Assembly (NCBI GenBank): GCA_031286165.1
Contig: JAITUU010000001.1
Coordinates: forward strand, 15,189-79,188
Source of the DNA: Bacteroidales bacterium
GTDB taxonomy: Bacteria > Bacteroidota > Bacteroidia > Bacteroidales > UBA1715
Length of the DNA stretch: 64,000 nucleotides
Direction: 5' to 3'
A model generated the notes under the pieces. The model had not been told where the DNA came from and did no database searches. It saw only the letters and a program-made list of their open reading frames with translations. Below are positions 31,806 to 47,000 of the stretch, piece by piece (position 1 is the first letter of the stretch; every line of letters starts with the position of its first letter). Made by a program: the position numbers and the translations under genes.

Positions 31806-31941
31806 TGAAACATATACGAACAATAAAAAAAATATCATTTCAAGATGTTGTTAATCATAGATTTAGGTGATAGTGAGCGAAAAAATGCTGAAATTTTCGC
31901 AAAAACTTTGCATTTGGGTATTTTTTATGAAAAATAGTTGT

Positions 31942-31949
31942 TATATTTG
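31942..31949 (+). promoter_or_regulatory. putative -7 promoter box
   Basis: TATATTTG, 82 nt upstream of the porP/sprF-like ATG. Confidence 0.4.
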
Positions 31950-32030
31950 CAGTTATTGTAGAGATAGAAAGAAAAGAATAAAAATTCGCCACAGATAAAA
32001 ATAGTAGATGTTTCTTTAACATTAGAGAGT

Positions 32031-33197
32031 ATGAAAAAAATATACAAACTTACACTTCTCATAATTTCCGTACATTGCTTTGCAACTGTTTTTGCGCAAG
32101 ACCCTAACTTTTCGCAATTTTATTTGAAAGAAATGTATTACAATCCGGGTTTTATAGGTATCAATCCGGGTTTGCGAGGAACAGTAACCGACCGCCATTT
32201 GTGGACAAACGTGCCGGGCGAGTGGGGAACTCAGAGTATTTCGGTTGATTTCTTCGACCAAAAATTTGCGCAGGGCGGTATTGGTGCCATTGTTACTCGT
32301 AATTCACAGGGAAATGGCAATATCAATACATTCACCGGCGGAATTGGTTATGCAAAGCAACTTCGATTTACTCCCGACTTTTTAATGCAATTAGGAGGTA
32401 TAGTAAATTATGTTCAAAAATCGGTGGATTGGAGTACGTTTTCATTTGTTGATGAATTTGACCCTCGTTTCGGTAGAATTTACGAAACAGAATTTGTGCC
32501 TCCTTTTGGCGGCGAGGGCAGAGACCGCGTAGGAGCCTTCGATTTCAGCGCAGGTTTGGTGGCTCGTTTCAATATTCGTAAAAATCCGGTGCGCTACATT
32601 GCTGCCAATACGGTGGGTATTGCTTTTCACCACTTATCGCAACCCGATATTTCGTGGCTCGATGATGAAACAGCCCGCTTGCCTATGAAAGTGAACATTC
32701 ATGCAACGTCTTCACTTCGTTTCGATAGAAAAGGTTTTTATAACAAATTCTTTTTGATAACTCCCGGCGTGTTGTACGAAAATCAAACGCCAACTCACTT
32801 GTGGTTCAAAGGAACAGAGGCAGGAGCGCAAACACTTTCGTTCGGTTTGAATGCCGTAATTCCTTCGCAGTTATCGTTTATGAGTTCATTGCAAGCAGGT
32901 TTGTGGGTGCGTAAAATGTACTACAAACGCGAATCACTTGCCGATGTAGCAAATTCGCTTCGCAACAAAACCTTCGATTCTATGATATTTACGCTGGGAT
33001 ATATGAAGGCTTCGCGCGATAACAAACGAACATATCAAATTGTGTATAGTTACGATATGACAATTTCACAAGCAGGATTGGGTACAGGCGGTTCGCACGA
33101 AATTACCTTGAATTTTGAAATTCACGATTTGGCGTTGCCAAGTTCTAAACAGCACATTGGTGCGGTACCTCACCCGAACGACAGATTTATGCGATAG
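32031..33197 (+). CDS. type IX secretion system membrane protein, PorP/SprF family
   Basis: Signal peptide, then QDPNFSQFYLKEMYYNPGFIGINPG, the hallmark PorP/SprF N-terminus. Confidence 0.85.
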   Translation: MKKIYKLTLLIISVHCFATVFAQDPNFSQFYLKEMYYNPGFIGINPGLRGTVTDRHLWTNVPGEWGTQSISVDFFDQKFAQGGIGAIVTRNSQGNGNINTFTGGIGYAKQLRFTPDFLMQLGGIVNYVQKSVDWSTFSFVDEFDPRFGRIYETEFVPPFGGEGRDRVGAFDFSAGLVARFNIRKNPVRYIAANTVGIAFHHLSQPDISWLDDETARLPMKVNIHATSSLRFDRKGFYNKFFLITPGVLYENQTPTHLWFKGTEAGAQTLSFGLNAVIPSQLSFMSSLQAGLWVRKMYYKRESLADVANSLRNKTFDSMIFTLGYMKASRDNKRTYQIVYSYDMTISQAGLGTGGSHEITLNFEIHDLALPSSKQHIGAVPHPNDRFMR

Positions 33198-33919: not shown

Positions 33920-35149
33920 TTATTTCATGCTCGCAATGCGAGTGCCAGCCATAATTACCTTGCTTTGATTGGCAAAGGAACTGAGGCGCACAAATCCTCG
34001 TCCGTGAGGACCGAAACGCTCACCCGGAGAGGATAGTATGTAGCAATCGTTGAGCAATTTATCGAAGAGTTTCCATGAAGAATCGTAGGGCGATTCTACC
34101 CAAATATACGGAGAATTGACCCCTCCCCAGAATTTCAAACCGGCATCGGTAAGTGCTTGACGCAAAATTGCGGCGTTCGACATATAATAATCCACATTTT
34201 CGCGTACCCATTTCAGTCCCGCTTGGCTAAATAGTGCTTCGGCTCCACGCTGAATAATGTAAGGCGGTGTGTAGTTTTTTATCATCAACCGTCTGCGCCA
34301 CAGTGCGTTGAGGTTTGCGCCCTTATCGGCTATGTAGGAATATCCCGAAAGTGTTTTGGGAATAATGGCGTAGCCGCAATTCAAACCCGTAAATCCTGCA
34401 TTTTTCGAGAAACTGCGAAATTCTATGGCTACTTTTTTCGCATCTTTTATTTCATAAATCGTTTGTGGAATTTCGGGATTGGTAACAAACGATTTGTAGG
34501 TGGCATCGAAGAGAATTAAAATATCGTTTTTCAAGGCATATTGCACCCATTTTTCGAGAATTTCGCGGGTCATTACGCAGCCGGTGGGGTTGTTGGGGTA
34601 ACTCATGTAAATTATGTCGGGGCGCAATTTGGGAAATTCCGGCATAAAATCGTTTTCTTTTTTACATTCCAAATACACAATATGGCTCCACTGTAAATTT
34701 TCGTTCAAATCACCGGCGCGATTACCTATCACATTCGATTCTATGTATTCCTGCGATACAGGGTCTATAACGGCTATGCGATTGTCGCGGCACAAAATAT
34801 CGCCAAATCCTGCAAGATTTTCTTTCGTGCCATGATTGATAAATACTTCATCGGGCGCAATTTTTATTTTGTAATTTTTGAAATTGTATTTCAAAATAGC
34901 ATCTATCAAAAACGGATAGCCTTCCACCGGTCCGCGACCTTGAAAGGTAGTTTCATCGCCCATTTCGGCTATTGCTTTGTGCATAGCCTCCATTACACAA
35001 GGTGCAAGCGGACGAATAACATCGCCGCTACTGAGGTTTATCAATTTTTTATCGCGGTTGATAGCCTGAAATTGATTGACCTTTTTGTCGATTTTGTTTT
35101 GAATTTCGTCATTCACGACTTTCAAAAACGGGGTATTGATGAGTGCCAT
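33920..35149 (-). CDS. dapL: LL-diaminopimelate aminotransferase
   Basis: 409-aa class I aminotransferase with PLP-lysine motif RSFSKNAGFTG. The N-terminal region and length match DapL as found in Bacteroidota and Chlamydiae. Confidence 0.75.
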   Translation of the reverse strand: MALINTPFLKVVNDEIQNKIDKKVNQFQAINRDKKLINLSSGDVIRPLAPCVMEAMHKAIAEMGDETTFQGRGPVEGYPFLIDAILKYNFKNYKIKIAPDEVFINHGTKENLAGFGDILCRDNRIAVIDPVSQEYIESNVIGNRAGDLNENLQWSHIVYLECKKENDFMPEFPKLRPDIIYMSYPNNPTGCVMTREILEKWVQYALKNDILILFDATYKSFVTNPEIPQTIYEIKDAKKVAIEFRSFSKNAGFTGLNCGYAIIPKTLSGYSYIADKGANLNALWRRRLMIKNYTPPYIIQRGAEALFSQAGLKWVRENVDYYMSNAAILRQALTDAGLKFWGGVNSPYIWVESPYDSSWKLFDKLLNDCYILSSPGERFGPHGRGFVRLSSFANQSKVIMAGTRIASMK

Positions 35150-35262
35150 ACTGTTCGTGTGTTACTATTGGTGGTTCAAAGATAGTAGAAACAATACAAT
35201 ATAAACGGTGTTTGTACTATTCATGTTTTGTACCATACTACAATTACGCAATTCACGTAAGG

Positions 35263-36792
35263 TTATTCCCATTCTACGGTTGCCGGCGGTTTGCTGGTAA
35301 TGTCATATACTATGCGGCTCACGTTTGCCAATTCACCGGTAATGCGTGAAGATATTTTACTCAATACTTTGTGAGAAATCGGTGTGTATTCGCAGGTCAT
35401 AAAATCGCTGGTGGTTACGGCACGCACAGCCACTACGTAGTCGTAGGTACGGTGGTCGCCTTTCACACCCACCGAACGAGTGTCGGTAAGTACGGCGAAA
35501 TATTGTTGCGGTTTTTTTCGTAATTTTCCGATTTCTTCGCACACTATGTGGTCGGCTCGTTGGAGCAGGTCGAGTTTTGCTTGGGTAATATCGCCCATAA
35601 TGCGAATAGCCAATCCGGGACCCGGAAAGGGCTGGCGATAGACAAGCGAATCGGGCAAGCCGAGCATTTTTCCTATAATGCGCACTTCGTCTTTGAATAA
35701 ACCCGAAAGAGGTTCTACAATTCCTTCAAATTTGTGATTATCGGGCAATCCGCCCACATTGTGGTGGCTTTTTATGGTGTCGCCAAATTCGCCGCCCGAT
35801 TCTATAATATCGGGATAAATAGTGCCTTGCGCCAAAAACTCTATGTCGCCGAGTTTACTTGATTCGTCTTCAAACACGCGCACAAATTCCGCGCCTATAA
35901 TTTTGCGTTTTTCTTCGGGGCTGCTAATTCCTTTCAGTTTTTTCAAAAAGCGGTCGGCAGCATTTACGCGAATAAAATGCAGTTTCTTTTTCGAGAAAAT
36001 TGCCTCAATTGCATCGCCTTCTTTGTAACGCATAAGTCCGTGGTCCACAAAAATGCAGGTGAGTTGCTCGCCAATGGCTTTGGAAAGCAGCGCGGCGCAC
36101 ACCGAAGAATCTACGCCGCCCGAAAGTCCGAGTAGCACTCGTTTGGTTCCCACCGCTTGGCGAATTGCTTTTACGCGAGTTTCTATATAATCGTCCAACC
36201 GATAACTACCAGCGGCTTTACATACGTTGAATAAAAAATTGTGCATTACTTTTTCGCCGTCATCGCTCAATTCCACTTCGGGGTGAAATTGCACGGCGTA
36301 TAGATTGCGCGACACGTTTTCGCAGGCGGCGTTTTGGCAATGTGCCGTAGATGCCGTGCGCACAAATCCTTGCGGAAGTTGTGTAACTTGGTCGGTGTGG
36401 CTCATAAGCATTCGCGCAGGCGATTTCACACCTTGCATTAACACCGAATTGTGAGCCACTGTATTTGTTTCTATTCGTCCGTATTCGCCCACGTTGGGCG
36501 TTTCTACACGTCCGCCAAGTGAGAAGCACATGGTTTGCATACCGTAGCAAATTCCTAAAATAGGAATACCGAGTTCAAAAATGGCAGGGTCGCACTTGGG
36601 CGAAGTTTCCAAATATGCACTATTTGGTCCGCCGGTGAGAATAATTCCTATGGGATTGAATTTTTTTACTTCCTCAGCCGAAATTTTTCCTGATTTTATT
36701 TCAGAATATACATTCAATCGGCGTGTCATGCGCGAAATCAATTCTTTGTATTGACCGCCGAAATCTAAAATGAGAACAAGTTCATTTTTCAT
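35263..36792 (-). CDS. guaA: GMP synthase (glutamine-hydrolysing)
   Basis: GATase motif LGICYGMQ, ATP-PPase P-loop LSGGVDSS and the C-terminus PPATVEWE. ATG at 36792. Confidence 0.93.
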   Translation of the reverse strand: MKNELVLILDFGGQYKELISRMTRRLNVYSEIKSGKISAEEVKKFNPIGIILTGGPNSAYLETSPKCDPAIFELGIPILGICYGMQTMCFSLGGRVETPNVGEYGRIETNTVAHNSVLMQGVKSPARMLMSHTDQVTQLPQGFVRTASTAHCQNAACENVSRNLYAVQFHPEVELSDDGEKVMHNFLFNVCKAAGSYRLDDYIETRVKAIRQAVGTKRVLLGLSGGVDSSVCAALLSKAIGEQLTCIFVDHGLMRYKEGDAIEAIFSKKKLHFIRVNAADRFLKKLKGISSPEEKRKIIGAEFVRVFEDESSKLGDIEFLAQGTIYPDIIESGGEFGDTIKSHHNVGGLPDNHKFEGIVEPLSGLFKDEVRIIGKMLGLPDSLVYRQPFPGPGLAIRIMGDITQAKLDLLQRADHIVCEEIGKLRKKPQQYFAVLTDTRSVGVKGDHRTYDYVVAVRAVTTSDFMTCEYTPISHKVLSKISSRITGELANVSRIVYDITSKPPATVEWE

Positions 36793-36864
36793 TGTTTGTT
36801 GTTTTTGAATACGGCACAAATGTACAACTTTTTACCGTGATTGCAGCACTACAATGAATACATT

Positions 36865-37258
36865 TTACTTCACAACTTTCTCCACCTGTCCATTAGCATA
36901 TTTCACAAGAAACATTCCTCGTTCGGGCGCGTTCACAAGTTTTTGACCGAGCAGATTGTAGTAGCCGACAATGGTTTTTTTCGTTTGCCGAAATTGTTTT
37001 TACGCCCACTGTTGCTTGGACAATAAGAAACCAGCGGTTGAGCCGAAACGAAATGCGGAGATTACCGAAGGGTTTTTCCTTGTGAATTTTTTGAAGAAGA
37101 AGGGCGCACAGAGCAGTCAAGAGCATATAGAACGCCCCAAAAATCATATAGGAAATTTTCTGCACATCGCGTATGCCAAGCAAAATAGCCACGCCTGCCG
37201 CTGCCCAACTCAGCAAGCAGGTCAAAACAATCCATTGCATTGCTCTTTTCATGTTCAA
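36865..37258 (-). pseudogene. decayed gene remnants: CPBP-protease-like N-terminal fragment joined out of frame to a T9SS C-terminal sorting-domain fragment
   Basis: Frame A (37258 down to about 37000) gives MNMKRAMQWIVLTCLLSWAAAGVAILLG ... FGNLRISFRLNRWFLI, a CPBP-like N-terminus. Frame B (37002-36865) gives KKTIVGYYNLLGQKLVNAPERGMFLVKYANGQVEKVVK*, a T9SS CTD-like end. Confidence 0.55.
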
Positions 37259-37376
37259 AAAAATGAGGTTTATCTTGATTTATTCAAACGCAAAGGTAAA
37301 TAATATCCGCCACTAATTACGCGGATTTACACAAAAATGTCTGCTGTCGAGTTAATTCTAATTCTCAAAGAATATT

Positions 37377-37473
37377 TAGTGCACTTTAAAAACAAAAAAA
37401 CAATAAAAGTAGTGCAGTTTATGAACAAAAAATAATAAAAATAGCGCAGTTTGGAAATTGAAAACAAAGAAAT
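37377..37473. repeat. three tandem 32-33-bp direct repeats
   Basis: TAGTGCACTTTAAAAACAAAAAAACAATAAAAG / TAGTGCAGTTTATGAACAAAAAATAATAAAAA / TAGCGCAGTTTGGAAATTGAAAACAAAGAAAT. The units start at 37377, 37410 and 37442. Confidence 0.8.
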
Positions 37474-37572
37474 GCTCCGGAGAAAAATTCTGATATAAAA
37501 GTTTTTACACCTATACCGAAAAAAGTTGTATTTACTATTTGAATTTGCCTTGATTATCGGTAAAACCGCTCG

Positions 37573-40536
37573 TTACATATCGAACAAGGTTCTGTCATAC
37601 ACCCCGCCATTGAATTTTCCTATCAATTCCCGTATAAATTCGTAATGTTTCACATAGTGATTCGGAATGGTAATCATACGAATATTCTTTTTGTGCAGCA
37701 ATTCCATTTTAATTCTATCAGAATCTATTCGTTTTTTGTTGCTGTAATGTTCTTTTCCGTTTATTTCAAACACAATTTTAGGAATCCCATTTTCATACAA
37801 TACCCCGTCAAATTCTTTTTTATTTATCAAATCGTTATCTCTTTCTTCGGGAAATACGGTCATAATTTTTACATTCCTATCAAATCTTCCGCCTTTTACG
37901 GTACAATAATAATTCATTGTGGTATAAAATTCGTTTTCAAATTTGGAGTCGTTGGAGAAACCTATTGTGAATTTATTGACAGCACTTTGAGAAATTTCTG
38001 TTGAACCGTGTTTGCTCACATAATCAATCAACGCATATAAATCATCGTCTTTTTTCGATAAAATATCTATTGCTTTTCTGTCGGCAACAACGATTAAATT
38101 CTCTTTTGCCCTTGTTACTCCCACATTTATCAACTCACTGTTGTTTTTAATCCAATCGTAGGTGTGCGAGGTTGTTTTTGTTGAAATTGCTGTAGATATT
38201 ATTATCGTTTTATTTTCCTGACCTTGCACTTTGTGTATGGTGCCGCAACTGATTGATGAATCTATTTCTTCTTTTTGCTTTGCTTCTTTCAGGTAATGAT
38301 TTATAACTTCTTCTTGATTTCGGAATGGTGTTATGATAAAAACATCGGATAATTTATTCTGTTTTATGTAGTTTACAATTTCTCTCGCTTCTTCTATTTG
38401 AGAATTTTTGTTTTTAGTATTCACATTGTTTACTTCCAGCAATGAAACATTTCCGATATGCTTAGTTGCCGAAAAATTCAACTTACTGTCATAAAATCTC
38501 ATATTGGAATAGTTGATAATTTTCTTTCCGCAACGATAATGATAACTCAACAGAATATCTCTCGAAATGTTATCTATTCGTTTATACACAGAAAGAATAG
38601 AATTGTTGCAGTAGTCATACTGTTCATCAATTTCAAACTGTTTCAATAACCGTTTATTCCGAGTTTCTTCAAAAATCACAATTGGTTTTAATTGATTTGT
38701 ATCGCCAATCAACACCATATTTTTGCATTTTGAAATGGGAATTAAACTTGTGGAAATATCGCATTGTCCGGCTTCATCGATGGTTAGTAAATCAAATTTG
38801 AATTTTTTTCCAAGTTTTCTGCTCGAAAGATTGGTGGTAAGAATAATCGGAAAAACTTTGGTGAATTTTTCCAAATTTTCATCGTTTGCTATCCATGTAT
38901 TAAATTCCTTTACTCGTTCATCTTCTTTGGTGTATAATATCTTGATCAACTCACTATATTCTTTTGATTTCAAGCGTTTTATGTATTTTAAGCACTCAAA
39001 ATAAAATAATTGTATCAGTGAATAATTATTTTGTATAATCTCAAAAATTCCTTTAATGTCGTCATCTGTGGTGTGAGGTATCTGCTGTAAACGAGTTTCA
39101 AGCACATTCTTTTCTTGTTCAAGATTCCAACAACGATTTTTTGACAGTAATCCGCTAACAAAATCCAAATTTTGCTCCAAATCAATTCTATCTTCGTAGT
39201 TTTTTAGTTTTTCGAGCAATTTCCAGTTATTCTCTTTCGATTTTTCTTTCAAATTGAGCAAAAGATTTTCTTTGGGAATATCTTTTGTTTCAAATTCATA
39301 CAATGCTCTTATTTTTTGCAGTGCTTCGAGTGTATATGTTTCATTTCCAAGCCGTATAAATGGAAACAGAATTTCTTTGTTTTTGTAAGTTCCCAGAAAC
39401 AATTTATCTGTTATTCCGTCAATGGGAGTGTTGTTGTTGGAGGAAATGAGTAATGTTTTGTTGTTCAGCAAACAGTTTACCACTATGTTTAGAATTGTTT
39501 GCGTTTTCCCCGTTCCGGGAGGTCCTTGAACGTATGTAATGGGATATTTAAGAGAATTATAAATGGTACGAAGTTGGTCTATATTCACATTGGCATCGTA
39601 GAGAACAATGTACGGTTCTTTGCGATTTTTTCTATCGAGCAACGATAAATTTTGGAAAAATGCCTTTAACGGAACTTGCATTTCTTGCTTTGTATGTTCC
39701 AAATTTATTTCGTCATAAATTTTCGATATATCTATTTGCTCATAACCCAAAACAACAATTTCCGGTCTTGTGTTCGGCAATTCGCCCTGTTTAAAACCAC
39801 TTTTTACCAATTCTATGGAGCCCAGCATATCTTTTTGAAATAAGATATCAAAATCAGATGATCGCAAATCGGTATAATACGACAATGAATATTTGCTGCC
39901 GTTAATATAAAATTTGGGATTAAAACGCAACTCTCCGATTTTTAGGGTCTTTTTTACGGGGTCAAAGGTAACAAGTCGGTATGCAACCACAAATTTCCCT
40001 TTTGATTCTAAATCTATTGAAAATATAGATACGGCAAGGTTGTAATCATGATAGGTTTTGTAATCGTTATGATATATTTCTTTTATAAAATGTTGGAGTT
40101 CTTCGTTTGTGAGCAAAAGTGAATCTTGCGAGAAGTCTAATCCCGAAATTAAATGCTGTTTGTGTAAAAATGGGTCTATGTTCGATTTGTAACATTCCAA
40201 GTAATAATTCAACACATTGTTGTCATAGCCATCAAAATTGTATTCCTGTAAACTTGTGTCATTATCAATCTTTTGTATCAGTTTTTCCGGCACCTCATAG
40301 TGTGAAAATCGTAGAATCTCAATAGTTTGAATACTCGAAATAAAAATTTTTGCATCGAATACGGGTTCGTCTTTTGTAACATTGAACATATTAACTCGCA
40401 GCGTTGCCTTTGCATCAACATCTAAAATACTTATCCAAAACGGCGTAATTTTTCCTTCTTTGTTTTTGTAGGTAATACTAAGATATTTCCCTTCTCTGAT
40501 TGCCTTCCCTATAAGTGCAGTTGTTTTATCTATCAT
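37573..40536 (-). CDS. three-module protein: N-terminal beta-rich (WYL/SH3-like?) region + SF1 Upf1/DNA2-like helicase + C-terminal Vsr-like (DUF559/DUF2726-type) PD-(D/E)xK nuclease
   Basis: 987-aa ORF in an AT-rich block. Walker A GPPGTGKT (nt 39502-39525), LLTIDEAGQ, VLIGDTNQLKP, GTIHKVQGQE and NVGVTRAKENLIVV. C-terminus EFDGVLYENGIPKIVFEINGKEH ... DRIKMELLHKKNIRMITIP. Confidence 0.8.
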   Translation of the reverse strand: MIDKTTALIGKAIREGKYLSITYKNKEGKITPFWISILDVDAKATLRVNMFNVTKDEPVFDAKIFISSIQTIEILRFSHYEVPEKLIQKIDNDTSLQEYNFDGYDNNVLNYYLECYKSNIDPFLHKQHLISGLDFSQDSLLLTNEELQHFIKEIYHNDYKTYHDYNLAVSIFSIDLESKGKFVVAYRLVTFDPVKKTLKIGELRFNPKFYINGSKYSLSYYTDLRSSDFDILFQKDMLGSIELVKSGFKQGELPNTRPEIVVLGYEQIDISKIYDEINLEHTKQEMQVPLKAFFQNLSLLDRKNRKEPYIVLYDANVNIDQLRTIYNSLKYPITYVQGPPGTGKTQTILNIVVNCLLNNKTLLISSNNNTPIDGITDKLFLGTYKNKEILFPFIRLGNETYTLEALQKIRALYEFETKDIPKENLLLNLKEKSKENNWKLLEKLKNYEDRIDLEQNLDFVSGLLSKNRCWNLEQEKNVLETRLQQIPHTTDDDIKGIFEIIQNNYSLIQLFYFECLKYIKRLKSKEYSELIKILYTKEDERVKEFNTWIANDENLEKFTKVFPIILTTNLSSRKLGKKFKFDLLTIDEAGQCDISTSLIPISKCKNMVLIGDTNQLKPIVIFEETRNKRLLKQFEIDEQYDYCNNSILSVYKRIDNISRDILLSYHYRCGKKIINYSNMRFYDSKLNFSATKHIGNVSLLEVNNVNTKNKNSQIEEAREIVNYIKQNKLSDVFIITPFRNQEEVINHYLKEAKQKEEIDSSISCGTIHKVQGQENKTIIISTAISTKTTSHTYDWIKNNSELINVGVTRAKENLIVVADRKAIDILSKKDDDLYALIDYVSKHGSTEISQSAVNKFTIGFSNDSKFENEFYTTMNYYCTVKGGRFDRNVKIMTVFPEERDNDLINKKEFDGVLYENGIPKIVFEINGKEHYSNKKRIDSDRIKMELLHKKNIRMITIPNHYVKHYEFIRELIGKFNGGVYDRTLFDM

Positions 40537-40830
40537 TCTCCGTTTTTTGTGATTGCCGATTTGTGCCTCATTTTGTGGTTACAAAACTTTGCTAAAAGTA
40601 TAAACTAACATACAACACAATTTATTGTTCTAATACCACAAAATATAAAGGTACGGAAAAATGAGAAAAATCGTGTGTTTTTTGCAAAAACCATAGCATA
40701 CTTTCCTTCGAGCGCATCTTTGAGTGTAAATTTTACTTTCGTTTTGACCATTATGCCGAGTTTTGATAAAGATGCTTCTTTTTTGTAATAGAACACTATA
40801 TATCCTTCATTGCTCGTACTCTCCCCTAAA

Positions 40831-40845
40831 TTCCCCGAAGGGGAA
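40831..40845. repeat. GC-rich mini-hairpin TTCCCC-GAA-GGGGAA
   Basis: Read directly. It has the same CCCCGAAGGGG core as the element inside carB at 42477-42493. Confidence 0.7.
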
Positions 40846-40848
40846 CGT

Positions 40849-40889
40849 AAAAAAAAACACCTCCCGCAAATCGAAGTTTGCAGGAGGTG
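40849..40889 (-). terminator. intrinsic terminator of carB
   Basis: On the minus strand, a 13-bp stem (CACCTCCTGCAAA / TTTGCGGGAGGTG, one G-U pair) with loop CTTCGA, followed by nine U. Confidence 0.85.
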
Positions 40890-40894
40890 TTTCA

Positions 40895-40915
40895 TTTTCA
40901 ACTTTCAACTTTCAA
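40895..40915. repeat. tandem heptamer array, (TTGAAAG)x2 + TTGAAAA on the minus strand
   Basis: The plus strand reads ttttcaa ctttcaa ctttcaa directly after the carB stop (40917-40919). The unit is identical to 7324-7351. Confidence 0.85.
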
Positions 40916-40916
40916 T

Positions 40917-43900
40917 TTATCGGTATTCTTCCCAACTTTTAATGCTAATCTCGTCCCTACCAATCGCGCAAAACGCTTCGATAAAGGCGCGGGCAAGGCG
41001 AGCGTTGGTAATGAGCGGAATGTTGAAGTCGATTGCCGAACGGCGTATGGTGTAGTCGTTCGAGAGTTCGCTTTTCGAGAGGTTTTTCGGTATGTTTACC
41101 ACCAAATCTATTTCGCGCTCTTTGATGTAGTCGAGCGTGTTGGGTTTTTCTGCCGAATCGGGCCAATGAAGCACCGTTGCTTTTACGCCGTTTTCTGCCA
41201 AGAAGTTGGCAGTGCCGGGTGTGGCAAAGAGTTCGTAACCTTTTTGTTGCAGAATTTTGGCGGCAGGCAGCATATCCGTTTTCGAGCGGCTGTCGCCGGT
41301 GGAGAGCAATACGCGCTTTTTCGGAATGGTGTAGCCCACCGAAAGCATAGATTTGAGTATCGCCTCGTTGAAATCTTCGCCTATGCAACCCACTTCGCCG
41401 GTCGATGCCATTTCCACACCCAAAATTGGGTCGGCTTTTTGCAAGCGCGAGAAGGAGAATTGCGGTGCTTTGATGCCCACATAGTCGAGTTCAAACGCCG
41501 ATTTGTGTGGAATATTCGGTTCCAAATCGAGCATTACTTTGGTGGCAATTTCTATGAAATTCACTTTGAGCACTTTCGACACAAAAGGGAAACTTCGCGA
41601 GGCGCGGAGGTTACATTCGATTACTTTGATGTCGTTGTTTTTTGCCATCAACTGCATGTTGAACGGACCGGTAATATTCAGTCCCTTAGCCACTTGTCGT
41701 GCAATTTTTTTGATGCGGCGCATGGTTTCTACATAGAGTTTTTGCGCAGGGAATACCATAGTGGCATCGCCGGAGTGCACACCGGCAAATTCTACGTGTT
41801 CTGAAATGGCGTAAATAAGCACTTCGCCGTTTTTCGCCACAGCGTCTATTTCTATTTCTTTGGCATTTTCTATAAATTCGGTAACAACCACCGGATGCTG
41901 TTTGCTCACGTTGGTTGCGAGAGTCAAAAATCCTTCCAACTCATCGCGGTTGCTCACCACGTTCATTGCCGCGCCCGAAAGCACGTATGAAGGGCGAATC
42001 AACAGCGGAAATCCTACTTTATCGGCAAAGGCGTAAATATCTTCGAGCGAGGTCATTTCCTTCCATTGCGGTTGGTCTATGCCCAAGTCATCGCACATTT
42101 GCGAAAAGCGGTGGCGGTCTTCGGCTTTGTCTATATTTTCGGCGGAAGTGCCGAGTATGTGCACGTTATTATTGTTCAAACGCACGGCAAGGTTGTTCGG
42201 AATTTGTCCGCCCACACTCACAATTACGCCGCGCGGCTGCTCCAAATCGGTAATATCGAGCACGCGCTCCAACGTGAGTTCGTCAAAATAGAGGCGGTCG
42301 CACATATCGTAGTCGGTAGAAACCGTTTCGGGATTGTAGTTTATCATAATTGCCTTCAAACCGCTTTGGCGAATGGTGTTCACAGCGTTCACCGAGCACC
42401 AATCGAACTCCACCGAACTACCAATTCGGTAGGCTCCCGAACCAAGAACAATCACAGCATCAGAAGCCCCCTCTAACTCCCCCGAAGGGGGAGGACAAGA
42501 AATCCCCGAAGTTTGATTTGGGTTTATATACCCCCCTTTGGGGGGCTGGGGGGCTTTGAATTCCACATCGTGCGCCACACCGTTATACGTAAGGTACAAA
42601 TAGTTGGTTTGCGCCGGATATTCTGCCGCGAGGGTGTCTATTTGTTTCACCACCGGCGTAATGCCTTGCTGCTTGCGGTGATTGCGCACCACACCCATTT
42701 TTTCTTCTACGTTGATATTTTCGCCGAAAATAATGCGGGCAATTTGGAAGTCGGAAAATCCTTTTTGTTTCAGTTCCAAGAGTAAATCGTTCGGAACATC
42801 GTCTATTTTTTTGAATTGCCCCAATTCGCGTTCGAGGTCGAAAATTCCTTGCAGTTTGTGCAAAAACCAGCGGTCTATTTTGGTGAGCGCGTGAATTTTT
42901 TCCACATCGTATCCTTTTTTGAGTGCTTGCGCAATCACAAAAATTCGTTTGTCGGTAGGGTGGCTCAGCGATTCGTCAATGTTTTCAACGGCAAGTTCTT
43001 TGTTTGCCACAAATCCGTGCATACCTTGCCCTATCATACGCAAGCCTTTTTGCACCGCCTCCTCGAAATTGCGTCCGATCGCCATTACCTCGCCTACGGA
43101 TTTCATGGACGAACCCAATTCGCGCGATACGCCTTTGAATTTACCCAAGTCCCAACGCGGAATTTTGCACACCACATAGTCGAGTGCCGGCTCAAAGCAG
43201 GCGGTGGTGGATTTCGTAACGGCATTTTTCAATTCGTGCAGTCCGTAGCCAAGTCCCAATTTGGCGGCTACAAAGGCGAGCGGATAGCCGGTAGCCTTTG
43301 ATGCGAGTGCCGAAGAGCGGCTCAATCGAGCGTTTACTTCGATTACGCGGTAATCTTCGGAGTTCGGGTCGAGCGCGTACTGCACGTTACATTCGCCCAC
43401 AATTCCTATGTGGCGAATAATTTTTATGGCAATGCGGCGCAGTTTGTGATATTCGGAGTTGGTGAGCGTTTGCGAAGGGGCAACCACAATACTTTCGCCG
43501 GTGTGAATACCGAGCGGGTCGAAATTTTCCATATTACACACGGTAATACAGTTGTCGTATTTATCGCGAACTACCTCATACTCAACCTCTTTCCAGCCTT
43601 TGAGCGATTTTTCCACCAAAATTTGCGGAGAGTAGGTGAAGGCTTTTGCCGCCAACACGTCTAATTCCGATTCGTTGTCGCAAAAACCGCTGCCCAGCCC
43701 ACCCAGCGTGTAGGCTGCGCGAATAATGATAGGATAGCCCAATTCGGCGGCTACTCGTTTTGCTTCGGAAACGGTGGTAACTGCCTCGCTTTTAATGGTT
43801 TTAACGTTTATTTCGTCTAATTTTTTGACAAATTCTTTGCGGTCTTCGGTGTCAATGATTGCTTGCACGGGGGTACCGAGCACGCGCACGTTGTATTTTT

Positions 43901-44228
43901 CGAGCACACCGCTTTGATAGAGTTTCACCCCGCAGTTGAGCGCGGTTTGTCCGCCGAAGGCAAGTAAAATTCCTTCCGGACGCTCTTTTTCAATCACTTG
44001 CTCCACAAAATCGGGCGTAACGGGCAGGAAATAGACCCTGTCGGCAATGTTTTCCGAAGTTTGAATAGTAGCAATGTTAGGATTGATGAGAACGGTAAAA
44101 ATACCCTCTTCTTTCAAGGCTTTGAGAGCCTGTGAACCTGAATAGTCGAACTCGCCGGCTTCGCCGATTTTCAACGCGCCCGAACCGAGCAAAAGAACTT
44201 TGGTTGGATTTTTCTTTATTTCTTGCAT
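40917..44228 (-). CDS. carB: carbamoyl-phosphate synthase large subunit
   Basis: 1103 aa. Two ATP-grasp halves (KVLLLGSGALKIGEAGEFDYSGSQ ... and VIVLGSGAYRIGSSVEFDWC ...) and a C-terminal MGS-like domain. Confidence 0.95.
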   Translation of the reverse strand: MQEIKKNPTKVLLLGSGALKIGEAGEFDYSGSQALKALKEEGIFTVLINPNIATIQTSENIADRVYFLPVTPDFVEQVIEKERPEGILLAFGGQTALNCGVKLYQSGVLEKYNVRVLGTPVQAIIDTEDRKEFVKKLDEINVKTIKSEAVTTVSEAKRVAAELGYPIIIRAAYTLGGLGSGFCDNESELDVLAAKAFTYSPQILVEKSLKGWKEVEYEVVRDKYDNCITVCNMENFDPLGIHTGESIVVAPSQTLTNSEYHKLRRIAIKIIRHIGIVGECNVQYALDPNSEDYRVIEVNARLSRSSALASKATGYPLAFVAAKLGLGYGLHELKNAVTKSTTACFEPALDYVVCKIPRWDLGKFKGVSRELGSSMKSVGEVMAIGRNFEEAVQKGLRMIGQGMHGFVANKELAVENIDESLSHPTDKRIFVIAQALKKGYDVEKIHALTKIDRWFLHKLQGIFDLERELGQFKKIDDVPNDLLLELKQKGFSDFQIARIIFGENINVEEKMGVVRNHRKQQGITPVVKQIDTLAAEYPAQTNYLYLTYNGVAHDVEFKAPQPPKGGYINPNQTSGISCPPPSGELEGASDAVIVLGSGAYRIGSSVEFDWCSVNAVNTIRQSGLKAIMINYNPETVSTDYDMCDRLYFDELTLERVLDITDLEQPRGVIVSVGGQIPNNLAVRLNNNNVHILGTSAENIDKAEDRHRFSQMCDDLGIDQPQWKEMTSLEDIYAFADKVGFPLLIRPSYVLSGAAMNVVSNRDELEGFLTLATNVSKQHPVVVTEFIENAKEIEIDAVAKNGEVLIYAISEHVEFAGVHSGDATMVFPAQKLYVETMRRIKKIARQVAKGLNITGPFNMQLMAKNNDIKVIECNLRASRSFPFVSKVLKVNFIEIATKVMLDLEPNIPHKSAFELDYVGIKAPQFSFSRLQKADPILGVEMASTGEVGCIGEDFNEAILKSMLSVGYTIPKKRVLLSTGDSRSKTDMLPAAKILQQKGYELFATPGTANFLAENGVKATVLHWPDSAEKPNTLDYIKEREIDLVVNIPKNLSKSELSNDYTIRRSAIDFNIPLITNARLARAFIEAFCAIGRDEISIKSWEEYR
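42465..42557. repeat. GC-rich double-hairpin element inserted in frame in the carB linker
   Basis: CTCCCCC-GAA-GGGGGAG (42477-42493) and CCCCCC-TTT-GGGGGG (42531-42545). Translated as KAPQPPKGGYINPNQTSGISCPPPSGELEGAS between the two synthetase halves. Confidence 0.7.
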
Positions 44229-45316
44229 AGTGCTAAAAATGTATCAAATAAATATTCTGTATCGTTTGGTCCGCTGGCGGCTTCGGGGTGAAATTGCACG
44301 GAGAAAAATGGTTTCGATTTGTGGCGTATTCCCTCGCAGGTGCCGTCATTCAAATTCACATAGTAGGGTTCCCAATCGCTGCCGAGCGTGGTGGTATCTA
44401 CCGCGTATCCGTGATTTTGCGAGGTAATTACAGCGTGGTTGGTGCCCACTTCGAGCGCGGGTTGATTGTGGCTGCGGTGTCCGTATTTCATTTTATAAGT
44501 AGTGCCGCCGGCTGCCATAGAAAGCAACTGATTGCCCATGCAAATACCGAAAATCGGTTTGCCTTTGGCGATTGCTTTTTTTATGTTTTCTACCGTAATG
44601 CCGCACATGGCAGGGTTTCCGGGACCATTGCTGAGCATCACACCATCGTATTCCAATTGCGTGAAATCGTAATCCCACGGCACGCGCGTAACGGTTGCGC
44701 CGCGTTTTGCCAAGCAGCGAATAATGTTGTATTTGCAACCGCAGTCCACCAGCACAATGTTGAGCGGCGTTTCGGGTGCATTTTTCGTAGGTTCGTATTT
44801 CTCCAAACCGCAGCAACTCACTTTTGCTACCAAATTTTCTACGTTCGGGTCTTCAAATTTTTGATGTTCGAGTGTCAAATCGCCGCCTTCCATTACAATG
44901 GTGGCGAGCATTACACCGCGTTCGCGAATGATTTTGGTAAGTTGGCGCGTGTCCACCCCGTAAATACCCGGCACGTTTTGCTCTTTCAACCATTGGTCGA
45001 GGCTTTTATTGGCATTCCAATGGCTGTGTTCCACCGAATAATCGGAAATAACCAACGCTTGTACATGGATTTTGCTCGATTCCATAAAAATGGAAAGCCC
45101 GTTATCCACTTCGGGCGGCACGCCGTAATTTCCTATCAAAGGAAAGGTTGGTACTAAAATTTGACCGCTGTACGAAGGGTCGGTAAGACTTTCGGGATAG
45201 CCGGTCATGGCAGTATTGAACACCACTTCGCCCGAAGTAGGACGCTCTGCACCAAAAGAAAATCCTTGAAACGTGGTGCCGTCTTCAAGGATTAAATATG
45301 CTTTTTTCTTATTCAT
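44216..45316 (-). CDS. carA: carbamoyl-phosphate synthase small subunit
   Basis: 366 aa. GATase motifs GICMGNQLL and FSVQFHPEA. Overlaps the carB start by 13 nt. Confidence 0.93.
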   Translation of the reverse strand: MNKKKAYLILEDGTTFQGFSFGAERPTSGEVVFNTAMTGYPESLTDPSYSGQILVPTFPLIGNYGVPPEVDNGLSIFMESSKIHVQALVISDYSVEHSHWNANKSLDQWLKEQNVPGIYGVDTRQLTKIIRERGVMLATIVMEGGDLTLEHQKFEDPNVENLVAKVSCCGLEKYEPTKNAPETPLNIVLVDCGCKYNIIRCLAKRGATVTRVPWDYDFTQLEYDGVMLSNGPGNPAMCGITVENIKKAIAKGKPIFGICMGNQLLSMAAGGTTYKMKYGHRSHNQPALEVGTNHAVITSQNHGYAVDTTTLGSDWEPYYVNLNDGTCEGIRHKSKPFFSVQFHPEAASGPNDTEYLFDTFLALCKK

Positions 45317-45333
45317 TGATGAAAAAATTTATG

Positions 45334-45341
45334 CAAAGATA
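45334..45341 (-). promoter_or_regulatory. putative -7 promoter box for carAB
   Basis: The minus strand reads TATCTTTG, 17 nt upstream of the carA ATG. Confidence 0.35.
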
Positions 45342-45567
45342 CTATTTTTTTGTTTACTGAAATAGGGGGGTAATTATTTTATTGTATATTTTATACCGTT
45401 TATAATGTTGTACTAATTTCACGTCTTTCGTAAAAAATTTGCCAAAAATACGTGTTTTTTATTAAAAATTCATATTTTCGTAAAAAAATAATGTTTGTGA
45501 AGTATAAACGCACCTCAAAATCTTCTGTTGTGAAGTAGTTTTGCGGCACTATTTATTCGTATAAGTT

Positions 45568-46023
45568 ATGGAAGATGTATTGGACGAATTGGATTATAAA
45601 ATCCTCAGATTGATTTCAAATGATGCGCGGGTGTCGTTTTTGGAAGTTTCGCGAATATGCAACGTGTCGGGAGCGGCGGTGCATCAGCGCGTGCAAAAAA
45701 TGATGGCAAACGGCATTATTACCGGTTCGGAATTTTGGCTCGATTTGCAAAAAATAGGCTACCAAACGTGCACGTTTTTGCTGCTCCGCTTTGGCGGTAC
45801 CGAAAATTTAGACGTGGTGGTGGAAAAATTGAAGGAAATTCGCGAAATTGTGGAATGTCATGCCATTGTGGGCGAATACGATATTTTGATTAAAATTTTT
45901 GCGAAAAACAATAATCATTTGTACGAAATTATTCAGAGCCAAATAAAACCACTCGGCGTGGTGCGTACCGAAACGGTAATTTCCTATCAGGAATCCTTCC
46001 ACCGCCAATTTGTGTTTGAATAA
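45568..46023 (+). CDS. Lrp/AsnC-family transcriptional regulator
   Basis: HTH_AsnC N-terminus (LDELDYKILRLISNDARVSFLEVSRICNVSGAAVHQRVQKM) and a RAM-like C-domain. Confidence 0.88.
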   Translation: MEDVLDELDYKILRLISNDARVSFLEVSRICNVSGAAVHQRVQKMMANGIITGSEFWLDLQKIGYQTCTFLLLRFGGTENLDVVVEKLKEIREIVECHAIVGEYDILIKIFAKNNNHLYEIIQSQIKPLGVVRTETVISYQESFHRQFVFE

Positions 46024-46966: not shown

Positions 46967-47000
46967 AGTTTTTTGTTTTTTTTTGCAAAAATACACTTTA

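What the first reader, a model, noticed from the sequence alone, without database searches (positions are those of the whole stretch)
37573..40536. AT-rich single-gene island encoding a possible-sensor/helicase/nuclease fusion: candidate stand-alone defence enzyme
Seen in the sequence:
- One 987-aa minus-strand ORF fills an AT-rich block between guaA and carB.
- By hand count there are 17 G+C in the 60 nt at 38401-38460, against 30 in carB at 41401-41460.

The translation has three modules:
1. Residues ~1-330 carry no enzyme motifs. Two beta-rich segments (KYLSITYKNKEGKITPFWISILDV; KGKFVVAYRLVTFDPVKKTLKIGELRF) remind me of WYL/SH3-like ligand-binding barrels.
2. Residues ~335-825 are an SF1 Upf1/DNA2-like helicase. 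Motifs are Walker A GPPGTGKT (K344), LLTIDEAGQ, VLIGDTNQLKP, GTIHKVQGQE and NVGVTRAKENLIVV.
3. Residues ~865-965 read EFDGVLYENGIPKIVFEINGKEH...DRIKMELLHKKNIRMITIP. This is the D / ExxxK pattern (D910, E924, K928) of Vsr-like DUF559/DUF2726 PD-(D/E)xK nucleases.

Established knowledge: single proteins that combine a nuclease with an Upf1-like helicase (for example the Nhi family), and WYL-type sensor fusions, recur in anti-phage immunity.

Inference: this is a horizontally acquired stand-alone defence gene. I cannot assign its domain order to a named system. The flanks fit an insertion:
- Decayed gene remnants and a 3x tandem repeat lie on its 3' side.
- The carB terminator and a GC mini-hairpin lie on its 5' side.
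- A 48-codon hydrophobic-tailed ORF (40605-40751, minus strand) sits just upstream. It is unverified.
Basis: partly seen in the sequence, partly recalled or inferred. Interest (0 to 1): 0.75.

Follow-up and report, generated by a model that had tools for sequence, protein, structure and literature searches.

The report
Acquired WYL–helicase–nuclease candidate defence gene
A single AT-rich gene inserted between two housekeeping genes of a Bacteroidales bacterium encodes a fused nucleic-acid-binding domain, motor and DNA-cutting domain; it most likely protects the cell against phages, belongs to a large unnamed family, and has not been tested experimentally.

Summary
A 987-aa minus-strand ORF (37573-40536) fills an AT-rich block between carB and guaA, with GC 0.32 against 0.40-0.52 for 19 other large ORFs.

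In the nearest relative found, a termite-gut Bacteroidales MAG, carB and guaA overlap by 4 nt. The ~4.1 kb interval is therefore a lineage-specific insertion.

The protein has three conserved modules:
- an N-terminal WYL-like Sm-fold barrel plus an unassigned beta-rich module;
- a complete Upf1/DNA2-like SF1B helicase;
- a C-terminal Vsr/DUF559/DUF2726-type PD-(D/E)xK nuclease with conserved D910, E924, D/N926, G927, E929, H930, D940 and K943.

The N-terminal region defines a family of at least 351 clusters at 50% identity. Almost all full-length members are ~1000 aa with the same architecture. Named members are mostly Bacteroidota and carry only generic helicase or ATPase annotations.

Thirteen homologue contexts share no partner gene. 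Five lie among restriction or other defence genes. Several are single-gene insertions among core genes.

It is not Hhe, Mokosh, Nhi or CoCoNuT, because defining features of each are missing. It has the same design logic as those systems.

Best reading: a stand-alone helicase-nuclease immune gene, a new variant of a known kind. A defence function is inferred, not shown.

The parts
37573..40536 (-). 987-aa ORF: WYL-like domain, unassigned middle module, Upf1-like SF1B helicase and Vsr/DUF2726-like nuclease
   Evidence: ORF and motifs. (full-length homologues at 67-77% identity). (all three modules conserved).
40297..40536 (-). Residues 1-80: WYL-like Sm-fold beta-barrel, the putative nucleic-acid or ligand sensor
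   Evidence: AF2 model: helix plus 5 strands, block pLDDT 76-92. Foldseek top hits are WYL proteins DriD, BrxR (prob 1.0), PafBC and CapW, then Sm/LSm. Pfam WYL matches 11 of 67 N-termini. PADLOC RTasWYL-YodC and WYL models match; the window protein scores E 0.0018. Conserved positions W/Y18, Y23, F/Y33, W34 and I69.
39589..40296 (-). Residues 81-316: family-specific helical linker plus beta-rich module of unknown fold class; it could be the counterpart of the Upf1/DNA2 1B barrel and stalk
   Evidence: Conserved across the family. No Pfam or PDB sequence match. Model secondary structure.
38062..39588 (-). Residues 317-825: SF1B Upf1/DNA2-like helicase core, motifs I-VI, with an insertion of about 165 aa (residues ~395-560) between motifs Ia and II
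   Evidence: Pfam AAA_11 and AAA_12 above gathering score. PDB matches to Sen1, Upf1, DNA2 and IGHMBP2. K344, E588, D612, R668, Q771, G772 and R809 are invariant in 79 divergent sequences; D587 is 75 of 79.
37576..38061 (-). Residues 826-987: C-terminal Vsr/DUF559/DUF2726-type PD-(D/E)xK nuclease domain (core about 865-965)
   Evidence: DUF2726 E 4.3e-4 for the window protein, and 16 of 23 relatives match. PADLOC homing-endonuclease model E 3e-4. PDB profile hit 3r3p. Foldseek 3r3p, 3hrl, VRR_NUC and TnsA. hhalign against DUF559 E 7.8e-4. Conserved D910, E924, D/N926, G927, E929, H930, D940, K943 and N959.
36820..40916 (.). Whole carB-guaA interval (~4.1 kb), absent from the nearest relative, where carB and guaA overlap by 4 nt
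   Evidence: L010: CarB 84%, GuaA 82% and CarA 76% identity, genes contiguous. No helicase homologue in any of the 80 guaA loci.
40854..40893 (-). Intrinsic terminator of carB, which isolates the inserted gene from carAB transcription
   Evidence: 17-bp stem with 7 GC pairs and a T-run. Inverted repeat I3.
40537..40853 (-). 5' intergenic region, presumed own promoter. It contains the mini-hairpin 40832-40844 and the unverified 48-codon ORF 40605-40751
   Evidence: Sequence. The ORF has no Pfam match and no tblastn match. Homologues likewise have about 50-800 nt of non-coding DNA upstream.
37377..37452 (+). AT-rich 32-33-nt tandem repeat, about 120 nt downstream of the stop codon; core TAGYGCASTTT occurs three times
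   Evidence: TRF 2.3 copies, 84% match. The motif occurs 4 times in the window against 0.12 expected. It is not found downstream of homologues.
36893..37258 (-). 121-aa hydrophobic ORF with host-like GC, between the island and guaA; status unknown
   Evidence: No Pfam family passes threshold. The single homologue is an 87-aa ORF elsewhere.

Best explanation
The gene encodes a self-contained sensor-motor-effector immune enzyme acquired by horizontal transfer.

Proposed mechanism (inferred):
1. The N-terminal WYL-like barrel binds a nucleic-acid cue. The most likely cue is single-stranded DNA exposed on phage or plasmid replication or recombination intermediates, as in the WYL proteins DriD and CapW.
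2. Binding recruits or de-represses the Upf1/DNA2-like SF1B motor, which uses ATP to move 5'->3' along the strand.
3. The C-terminal Vsr/DUF559/DUF2726-type PD-(D/E)xK nuclease nicks or cuts the nucleic acid the motor feeds it. This destroys the invader directly, or the infected cell's DNA if the outcome is abortive.

Shown here: the domain identities, the conservation of the catalytic residues, the insertion at this locus, the lack of a conserved partner gene, and the frequent defence-gene neighbours.

Inferred: the defence role, ssDNA as the cue, the substrate, and how the modules are coupled.
For: **Acquisition**
- GC is 0.32 against 0.40-0.52 for other large ORFs.
- In the nearest relative carB and guaA overlap with no insert.
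- Homologues at 67-77% identity occur across different orders and classes of Bacteroidota. They are often more AT-rich than their own flanks, for example L008 0.27 against 0.45 and L009 0.26 against 0.39.

**Stand-alone gene**
- Thirteen contexts share no neighbouring gene.
- Several are single-gene insertions among core genes. Examples: rarA and a TonB-dependent receptor gene in L001; rpsI-rpsB-tsf-atpD in L090; next to smc in L092.

**Defence neighbourhood (5 of 13 contexts)**
- L003: type I R-M, a PDDEXK gene and McrBC.
- L006: type I R-M, Abi_C and a PLD gene.
- L004: Vsr, a Schlafen-type helicase, DUF559 and a reverse transcriptase.
- L009: an SRA-HNH gene and Fic.
- L105: UvrD/GajB-like and GmrSD genes.
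- A PADLOC scan of 51 neighbour proteins from eight homologue loci gave strong matches to PDC-S41, PDC-S26, PDC-S14, RTasHel, GajB and DrmC.

**Functional integrity**
- Helicase motifs and nuclease residues are invariant or nearly so in 79 sequences down to 28% identity.
- All three modules are conserved to a similar degree in close homologues: N-terminal 67%, helicase 77%, C-terminal 69% mean identity to the window protein.

**Similarity to defence proteins**
- The best PADLOC matches are the helicase cores of Mokosh MkoC and MkoA (1e-45, 2e-40), then PDC-S37 and Hhe.
- NCBIfam matches ProA, PLuB and Hhe, all anti-phage helicase proteins, below their cut-offs.

**Precedent**
- Hhe is a single protein with a helicase and a Vsr-type nuclease, and it needs its nuclease glutamate for defence (bioRxiv 10.1101/2022.06.16.496414).
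- Mokosh needs both its Upf1-like helicase and its nuclease (bioRxiv 10.1101/2022.05.11.491447).
- WYL domains with solved ssDNA complexes are the top fold matches.
Against: - There is no experimental evidence for any member, and no paper describing the family was found.
- Eight of 13 contexts show no recognisable defence neighbour.
- No mobility gene and no target-site duplication flank the insert. How it moved is unknown.
- The WYL and nuclease assignments each rest on several weak signals that agree, not on one strong one. Foldseek E-values are 2e-3 to 0.5. Pfam WYL gives no match for the window protein. DUF2726 scores 20.5 bits against a cut-off of 24.7.
- In this subfamily the second acidic position of the ExD motif is Asn (N926).
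- The helicase core alone cannot tell a DNA substrate from an RNA one. The best solved-structure match is Sen1, which acts on RNA and R-loops.
Confidence: 0.55

Rival explanations
1. It is an immune gene, but it targets RNA or RNA:DNA hybrids. The Upf1/Sen1-like motor would load on phage transcripts or R-loops, the WYL-like domain would bind ssRNA (as in the Cas13d accessory protein WYL1), and the nuclease would cut RNA or the hybrid. This is the mechanism proposed for Mokosh and CoCoNuT.
For: - The best PADLOC hits are Mokosh helicases.
- The best solved-structure hits are Sen1 and Upf1.
- In two related loci an RNase H gene lies 53 nt upstream on the same strand.
- The CoCoNuT authors argue that Vsr-like effectors fused to Upf1-like helicases may act on RNA (PMC11090510).
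Against: - All characterised members of the Vsr/DUF559/I-Bth0305I group cut DNA (PMC3424549).
- The top WYL fold matches, DriD and CapW, are ssDNA complexes.
- The RNase H neighbour occurs in only 2 of 13 contexts and is absent here.
- Upf1-family members such as DNA2 and IGHMBP2 act on DNA.
Confidence: 0.2
2. It is not an immune gene. It is a horizontally mobile accessory DNA-repair or recombination helicase-nuclease, a DNA2-like end or flap processor, with the WYL-like domain acting as an ssDNA-binding accessory as in the Thermotoga elfii PIF1 helicase (recalled from memory, not checked here).
For: - It combines a DNA2/Upf1-type helicase with a PD-(D/E)xK nuclease.
- Many contexts lie among housekeeping genes (L001, L008, L090, L092, L104).
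- Sources name the proteins only as helicases or ATPases.
Against: - It is absent from the nearest relative at this locus.
- Its distribution is patchy, its locations are non-syntenic, and its composition is atypical for its hosts.
- Five of 13 contexts are defence islands.
- The domain order is opposite to DNA2.
- It reaches no NCBIfam repair-family cut-off.
Confidence: 0.12
3. It is a selfish or element-borne gene, either a remnant cargo of a degraded integrative element or a gene used in competition between mobile elements. It would then be maintained for the element's benefit, not the host's.
For: - It forms an AT-rich island with repeat-rich flanks.
- One homologue lies near a phage-type integrase (L103), and Y1 transposases are nearby in L004 and L009.
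Against: - There is no integrase, transposase, tRNA-gene attachment site or terminal repeat at this locus.
- No full-length family member was found on IMG/VR viral contigs, GenBank phages or PLSDB plasmids.
- The ORF is intact with all catalytic motifs.
Confidence: 0.08

Closest known systems
Hhe (Gao et al. 2020 single-gene system: DUF4011 + SF1 helicase + Vsr-like endonuclease)
   Same: One polypeptide with an N-terminal accessory region, an AAA_11/AAA_12 Upf1-like helicase and a C-terminal Vsr-type PD-(D/E)xK nuclease. Hhe's defence depends on its nuclease glutamate (bioRxiv 10.1101/2022.06.16.496414). The PADLOC and NCBIfam Hhe models match the helicase core here.
   Different: The window protein is about half the size (987 aa, against Hhe profiles of about 1800-1900 positions). 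It has no DUF4011. It scores 59 bits against the NCBIfam cut-off of 2000. Its N-terminus is WYL-like instead. The nuclease domain did not align to the Hhe models.
CoCoNuT type III-B CnuH (Upf1-like helicase fused to a Vsr-like nuclease; PMC11090510)
   Same: A Upf1-clade SF1 helicase with a large insertion after Walker A, an N-terminal nucleic-acid-binding domain, and a directly fused C-terminal Vsr-like nuclease.
   Different: CnuH works in an operon with NxD-type McrB/McrC homologues (CnuB, CnuC) and a coiled-coil protein (CnuA), and has an N-terminal wHTH. This gene stands alone. The one McrB found next to a homologue (L003) has the canonical NxxD motif MNTADRS. No direct sequence comparison was possible because the type III-B sequences are cut off in the stored supplement.
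Mokosh type II (MkoC)
   Same: A single gene with a Upf1-like (COG1112) helicase plus a nuclease effector. It gives the best PADLOC score (1.2e-45). Automated tools may label family members as Mokosh.
   Different: The match covers the helicase core only. The defining PLD nuclease is absent: no PLD Pfam hit and no HxKxxxxD motif. A Vsr-type nuclease takes its place, and there is an extra WYL-like N-terminus.
Nhi (nuclease-helicase immunity, Staphylococcus)
   Same: A stand-alone nuclease plus SF1 helicase defence protein, reported to degrade phage replication intermediates (as summarised in PMC11232893).
   Different: In Nhi the nuclease is N-terminal and HsdR-like, the helicase is of the DUF2075 type, and the protein is about 610 aa. 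No PADLOC Nhi match was found at E<=1.
WYL-domain proteins (DriD, CapW, BrxR, PafBC; PIF1-WYL helicase)
   Same: The N-terminal 80 residues adopt the same Sm-like barrel. WYL domains sense ssDNA or other ligands in defence regulation (PMC4012209).
   Different: Those proteins are mostly HTH transcription factors in which WYL controls DNA binding. Here the domain is fused in cis to an enzyme and has no HTH or recognisable WCX domain. The Pfam WYL model does not reach threshold.

Membership tests
SF1B Upf1/DNA2-like helicases (Pfam AAA_11 + AAA_12) | Both Pfam domains above gathering score, with motifs I, Ia, II, III, IV, V and VI intact | tested here: met
   AAA_11 106 bits and AAA_12 70 bits against a cut-off of 27. 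Motif positions confirmed. Residues invariant or nearly so across 79 sequences. PDB matches to Sen1, Upf1, DNA2 and IGHMBP2.
Vsr/DUF559/DUF2726 group of PD-(D/E)xK nucleases | Pfam DUF2726 (or DUF559 or Vsr) at gathering score | tested here: not met
   The window protein scores 16.9-20.5 bits against a cut-off of 24.7. However, 16 of 23 close relatives match at E<=0.01, best 2.5e-6.
Vsr/DUF559/DUF2726 group of PD-(D/E)xK nucleases | Conserved catalytic pattern: D on one strand, then ExDGxxH on the next strand, then a downstream D | tested here: met
   In 79 sequences: D910 77, E924 76, position 926 D 34 / N 26, G927 75, H930 71; D940 and K943 are at least 90% conserved in A3. hhalign places FEINGKEH...D...IPN on IELDG...D...RFRN of a DUF559 protein. 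In the window protein position 926 is N.
Vsr/DUF559/DUF2726 group of PD-(D/E)xK nucleases | Restriction-endonuclease-like alpha-beta-beta-beta-alpha-beta fold closest to 1cw0, 3hrl and 3r3p | tested here: inconclusive
   The AF2 model has mean pLDDT 69, with core blocks at 85-94. The top Foldseek hits are 3r3p and 3hrl, then VRR_NUC and TnsA, but E-values are 0.1-0.5.
WYL domain (PF13280) | Pfam model at gathering score | tested here: not met
   No Pfam family at E<=10 for the window N-terminus. Among 67 divergent N-termini WYL is the commonest match (11 members) but the best E-value is 0.009.
WYL domain (PF13280) | Sm/SH3-like five-stranded barrel most similar to solved WYL domains | tested here: met
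   Model residues 1-75, block pLDDT 76-92. Foldseek top hits are DriD, BrxR (prob 1.0, 85 columns), PafBC and CapW, ahead of Sm/LSm proteins, though E-values are only 2e-3 to 3e-2. PADLOC WYL-type models match 18 member-model pairs, best 7.5e-5.
Hhe | NCBIfam equivalog NF042953 at cut-off, and presence of DUF4011 | tested here: not met
   59 bits against a cut-off of 2000, helicase core only. No DUF4011 in Pfam results.
Mokosh type II (MkoC) | C-terminal PLD-family nuclease | tested here: not met
   No PLD Pfam hit. No HxKxxxxD motif. The MkoC model matches residues 555-849 only.
Nhi | N-terminal nuclease followed by a DUF2075-type SF1 helicase | tested here: not met
   The domain order is reversed, the helicase is AAA_11/AAA_12, and there is no Nhi model among PADLOC hits at E<=1.
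CoCoNuT type III-B | Operon with NxD-motif McrB-like CnuB, CnuC and coiled-coil CnuA | tested here: not met
   No such genes flank the window gene or 12 of 13 homologues. The McrB next to the L003 homologue carries the NxxD motif (MNTADRS).
Anti-phage defence genes (operational definition) | Enrichment next to known defence genes, with variable accessory location | tested here: met
   Five of 13 contexts have R-M, McrBC, Abi, GmrSD, SRA-HNH or reverse-transcriptase genes within 8 kb. PADLOC matches in neighbours. No formal background rate was computed.
Anti-phage defence genes (operational definition) | Protection against phage or plasmid when expressed | not testable with these tools
   Requires an experiment.

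The most novel reading that the evidence does not exclude
This is the founding example of an unnamed, widespread single-gene immune system, mainly in Bacteroidota. In it a WYL sensor domain is fused in cis to a Upf1-like motor and a Vsr-like nuclease. A ligand such as ssDNA would then gate an effector enzyme directly, instead of acting through transcription as in all characterised WYL regulators. The family would be a compact, independently assembled counterpart of Hhe and of CnuH.
Probability: 0.45. Interest if true: 0.65.

Novelty: new variant of a known kind. Interest (0 to 1): 0.5.

Why it matters
- Single-protein helicase-nuclease defences (Hhe, Nhi, Hna, Mokosh II) are known, but how they sense infection is poorly understood. 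A family whose sensor candidate is a recognisable WYL-like barrel fused to the enzyme offers a tractable model for sensing-to-cutting coupling in one polypeptide.
- The family is large: at least 351 clusters at 50% identity. It is common in Flavobacteriia, Chitinophagia, Cytophagia and Bacteroidales, which are ecologically important and underexplored for immunity.
- Family members currently carry only generic helicase or ATPase names. They may be mislabelled as Mokosh by automated tools because only the helicase core matches.
- At this locus the insertion splits a translationally coupled carB-guaA pair. This shows how such genes land in core operons.

Tried and rejected
**Membership in named systems**
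- Hhe, Mokosh, Nhi and CoCoNuT were each rejected on a defining feature.

**Searches for the middle module (residues 100-310)**
- Per-member Pfam scan: no consistent family.
- Profile search against PDB sequences: no match.

**Profile searches against PDB sequences**
- N-terminal region: only chance-level hits.

**Search for partners or shared elements**
- tblastn of the 98/48-codon ORF and of ORF121 against homologue loci found nothing.
- The RNase H neighbour occurs only in L003 and L006.
- The tandem-repeat motif is not shared with homologue loci.
- Rfam finds nothing in the interval.

**Search for insertion boundaries**
- No target-site duplication or terminal inverted repeats were found.

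**Search for carriage on mobile elements**
- IMG/VR viral contigs, GenBank phages and PLSDB plasmids gave only distant matches limited mainly to the helicase core.

**Neighbours of L007, L103, L104 and L009**
- Ten unannotated neighbours were scanned with PADLOC with no hits. Those contexts stay unclassified.

**Limits met**
- The metagenome scan with the single protein returned only four family loci.
- The CoCoNuT type III-B sequences could not be retrieved for direct comparison.
- The word-index search with the N-terminus alone listed only fragments of the same family.

Full report
**1. The observation**

The 987-aa minus-strand ORF at 37573-40536 is present as described. The two hand counts of G+C (17 and 30 per 60 nt) are exact.

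GC in 500-nt windows falls to 0.29-0.36 between about 37250 and 40750. It is 0.45-0.51 in guaA and carB. The ORF has GC 0.323 and GC3 0.328. That is the lowest of 20 large ORFs in the window, whose other members have GC 0.40-0.52 and GC3 0.39-0.58.

The flanking features check out as follows:
- The carB terminator is a 17-bp stem followed by a T-run at 40893->40854.
- The GC mini-hairpin is at 40832-40844.
- The tandem repeat is a 32-33-nt unit at 37377-37452, scored as 2.3 copies. Its core TAGYGCASTTT occurs three times.
- The 48-codon ORF exists, but it has no family match and no counterpart at homologous loci.
- 'Decayed gene remnants' is not established. The 121-aa ORF 36893-37258 has host-like GC. 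Its single database homologue is an 87-aa ORF in an unrelated context.

**2. It is an insertion**

A scan of one genome per species with GuaA found only two Bacteroidales relatives. The closest is a termite-gut Bacteroidales MAG, L010, with GuaA 82%, CarB 84% and CarA 76% identity.

In L010 carA, carB and guaA are contiguous, and the carB stop overlaps the guaA start by 4 nt. In the window about 4.1 kb (36820-40916) lies exactly between the carB stop and the guaA start.

None of the 80 guaA loci contains a homologue of the helicase. No target-site duplication, terminal inverted repeat, integrase or transposase marks the insert. How it arrived is unknown.

**3. Anatomy of the protein**

*Helicase.* Pfam AAA_11 (residues 317-621, 3e-30) and AAA_12 (658-820, 2e-19) are both above gathering score. 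The closest solved proteins by sequence are Sen1, Upf1/Nam7, DNA2 and IGHMBP2. An insertion of about 165 residues lies between motifs Ia and II.

*C-terminal domain.* Several weak lines of evidence agree:
- DUF2726 scores 20.5 bits against a cut-off of 24.7 for the window protein, but it matches 16 of 23 close relatives, best 2.5e-6.
- A PADLOC homing-endonuclease model matches at 3e-4.
- A family profile finds I-Bth0305I (3r3p) in the PDB.
- An AF2 model (core pLDDT 85-94) has 3r3p and 3hrl as its best fold matches, followed by VRR_NUC and TnsA.
- The structures 3r3p, 3hrl and 1cw0 represent the 'VSR, DUF559, DUF2726' group in the PD-(D/E)xK classification (PMC3424549).
- A profile comparison with a DUF559 protein from locus L004 aligns FEINGKEH...D...IPN with IELDG...D...RFRN (E 7.8e-4).

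*N-terminal region.* The first 75 residues model as a helix plus a five-stranded barrel, with block pLDDT 76-92.
- The best fold matches among 350,542 PDB chains are the WYL proteins DriD, BrxR (probability 1.0 over 85 columns), PafBC and CapW, ahead of Sm/LSm proteins.
- Among 67 divergent N-termini, WYL is the most frequent Pfam match (11 members). PADLOC WYL-type models also match, best 7.5e-5, and the window protein scores 0.0018.

*Middle module.* Residues about 81-316 are conserved but match nothing. They may correspond to the 1B barrel and stalk of Upf1/DNA2 helicases. I could not test this.

**4. The family**

The window protein is a singleton at 90% identity. Its 119 best listed homologues are all 968-1059 aa and 67-77% identical. 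Nearly all align over 99-100% of the query, and three over 96%. Those with a named source come from Chitinophagaceae, Flavobacteriaceae, Cyclobacteriaceae and Bacteroidales. Their only names are generic, such as 'DEAD/DEAH box helicase' and 'AAA domain-containing protein'.

A profile of the N-terminal 320 residues was searched against 1.84 billion representatives. It finds 351 clusters at E<=1e-3. Nearly all full-length ones are about 1000 aa and begin with this region. The N-terminus is therefore specific to the family.

I aligned 78 divergent full-length members, 28-41% identical to the window protein.
- Helicase residues K344, E588, D612, R668, Q771, G772 and R809 are invariant, and D587 is present in 75 of 79.
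- Nuclease positions D910, E924, G927, E929, H930, D940, K943 and N959 are nearly invariant.
- Position 926 is D in 34 and N in 26 of 79.
- N-terminal positions W/Y18, Y23, F/Y33, W34 and I69 are conserved.

All three modules are conserved to a similar degree among close homologues, which argues that all are functional.

**5. Genomic contexts**

Thirteen homologue contexts share no neighbouring gene.

Five lie among defence genes:
- L003: type I R-M, a PDDEXK gene and RNase H upstream; McrBC downstream.
- L006: type I R-M, Abi_C, a PLD gene and RNase H.
- L004: Vsr, a Schlafen-type helicase, DUF559 and a reverse transcriptase.
- L009: an SRA-HNH gene and Fic.
- L105: a UvrD/GajB-like helicase, GmrSD and AAA_21.

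A PADLOC scan of 51 neighbour proteins from eight homologue loci gave strong matches to PDC-S41, PDC-S26, PDC-S14, RTasHel, GajB and DrmC.

Others are single-gene insertions among core genes:
- L001: between rarA and a TonB-dependent receptor gene.
- L090: after rpsI-rpsB-tsf-atpD.
- L092: between a two-component system and smc.
- L008 and L104.

One homologue lies near an integrase (L103). Ten unannotated neighbours in L007, L103, L104 and L009 gave no PADLOC hit.

Homologues are often more AT-rich than their own flanks. No full-length member was found on IMG/VR contigs, GenBank phages or PLSDB plasmids.

**6. Mechanism**

The best-supported reading is a stand-alone sensor-motor-effector immune enzyme.
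1. The WYL-like barrel binds a nucleic-acid cue.
2. The SF1B motor translocates 5'->3'.
3. The Vsr-type nuclease cuts.

I favour ssDNA on replication or recombination intermediates as the cue and DNA as the substrate. Two things point that way: the top WYL fold matches include ssDNA complexes of DriD and CapW, and characterised members of the Vsr/DUF559/I-Bth0305I group are DNA endonucleases (PMC3424549). This step is inference.

An RNA or R-loop target is the main rival. Supporting it are the similarity to Sen1, Upf1 and Mokosh, the RNase H neighbour in two loci, and the arguments made for CoCoNuT systems (PMC11090510).

A mobile repair helicase-nuclease and a selfish-element gene are less likely, given the distribution, the neighbours and the absence of element genes.

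**7. Comparison with known systems**

- *Hhe.* It has the same layout: accessory N-terminus, Upf1-like helicase, C-terminal Vsr nuclease. It is validated as a single-gene defence that depends on its nuclease (bioRxiv 10.1101/2022.06.16.496414). The window protein scores 59 bits against the equivalog cut-off of 2000 and lacks DUF4011.
- *Mokosh type II.* It gives the best PADLOC score, but only over the helicase. The defining PLD nuclease is absent (bioRxiv 10.1101/2022.05.11.491447).
- *Nhi.* It has the opposite domain order and a DUF2075 helicase (PMC11232893).
- *CoCoNuT type III-B CnuH.* This is the closest in architecture: an N-terminal binding domain, a Upf1-like helicase with an insertion after Walker A, and a fused Vsr-like nuclease. 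It is defined by an operon with NxD-type McrBC homologues. Those are absent here, and the one adjacent McrB (L003) has the canonical NxxD motif.

No paper describing this family was found.

**8. Verdict**

The gene is a horizontally acquired, intact, stand-alone WYL-like/Upf1-like helicase/Vsr-like nuclease fusion. It belongs to a large unnamed family. It is best classed as a new variant of the known helicase-nuclease kind of defence gene. The defence function and the substrate remain to be shown experimentally.

Noticed in passing
window 42474-42551 (within carB, minus strand); compare 40815-40848: CarB carries a 26-aa in-frame insertion (residues 560-585, PQPPKGGYINPNQTSGISCPPPSGEL) that is absent from the nearest relative's CarB. 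The DNA is GC-rich and palindromic (CCCCCGAAGGGGG, CCCCCCTTTGGGGGG). It resembles the mini-hairpin element just downstream of the carB terminator, which suggests a small REP/MITE-like element that can sit in frame in a linker.
   Followed up: partly
window 33920-45316; loci L010-L089: The carA-carB-guaA(-dapL) gene order is shared with many termite-gut Firmicutes and Treponema MAGs. The window's GuaA is 62-69% identical to theirs. Only two Bacteroidales hits appear (82% and 71%). The host appears to be a termite-gut Bacteroidales lineage without a close sequenced relative, and the operon may itself have a history of transfer.
   Followed up: partly
L003 7247-7948 and L006 7244-7948: An RNase H-domain gene (233-234 aa, 85% identical between the two loci, with a C-terminal Cys-rich tail) lies 53 nt upstream of the helicase homologue on the same strand in Polaribacter and Winogradskyella. 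It is not present at the other 11 loci or in the window. This may be a two-gene variant that points to RNA:DNA hybrids.
   Followed up: partly
window 37377-37452: The motif TAGYGCASTTT occurs three times at about 33-nt spacing just downstream of the gene. There are 4 copies in the window against 0.12 expected. It is not found downstream of homologues, matches no Rfam family, and its function is unknown.
   Followed up: yes
window 36893-37258 (-); L106 234-497: A 121-aa hydrophobic ORF with host-like GC lies between the island and guaA. Its only homologue (67% identity over the first 78 residues) is an 87-aa ORF on an unrelated 2-kb metagenome contig. Both end soon after the shared ...ISFRLNRWFL. 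It could be a small membrane protein or the same N-terminal gene fragment.
   Followed up: partly
L003 11028-15875: A 1201-aa McrB with an EVE domain and the canonical NxxD motif (MNTADRS), plus McrC, begins 37 nt after the helicase homologue. This is a conventional type IV restriction neighbour, not a CoCoNuT system.
   Followed up: yes
Neighbour genes pooled from L003, L004, L006, L007, L009, L103, L104 and L105: Several neighbours of family members match PADLOC candidate systems very strongly (PDC-S41 3e-285, PDC-S26 3e-147, PDC-S14 2e-109, RTasHel 8e-65). Ten neighbours from L007, L103, L104 and L009 gave no hit when scanned individually, so these matches probably come from the other loci. 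I did not map which gene carries which match.
   Followed up: partly
window 31000-32250, 45250-45750, 46750-47750: Other low-GC patches (0.32-0.36) occur in the window. I did not examine them.
   Followed up: no
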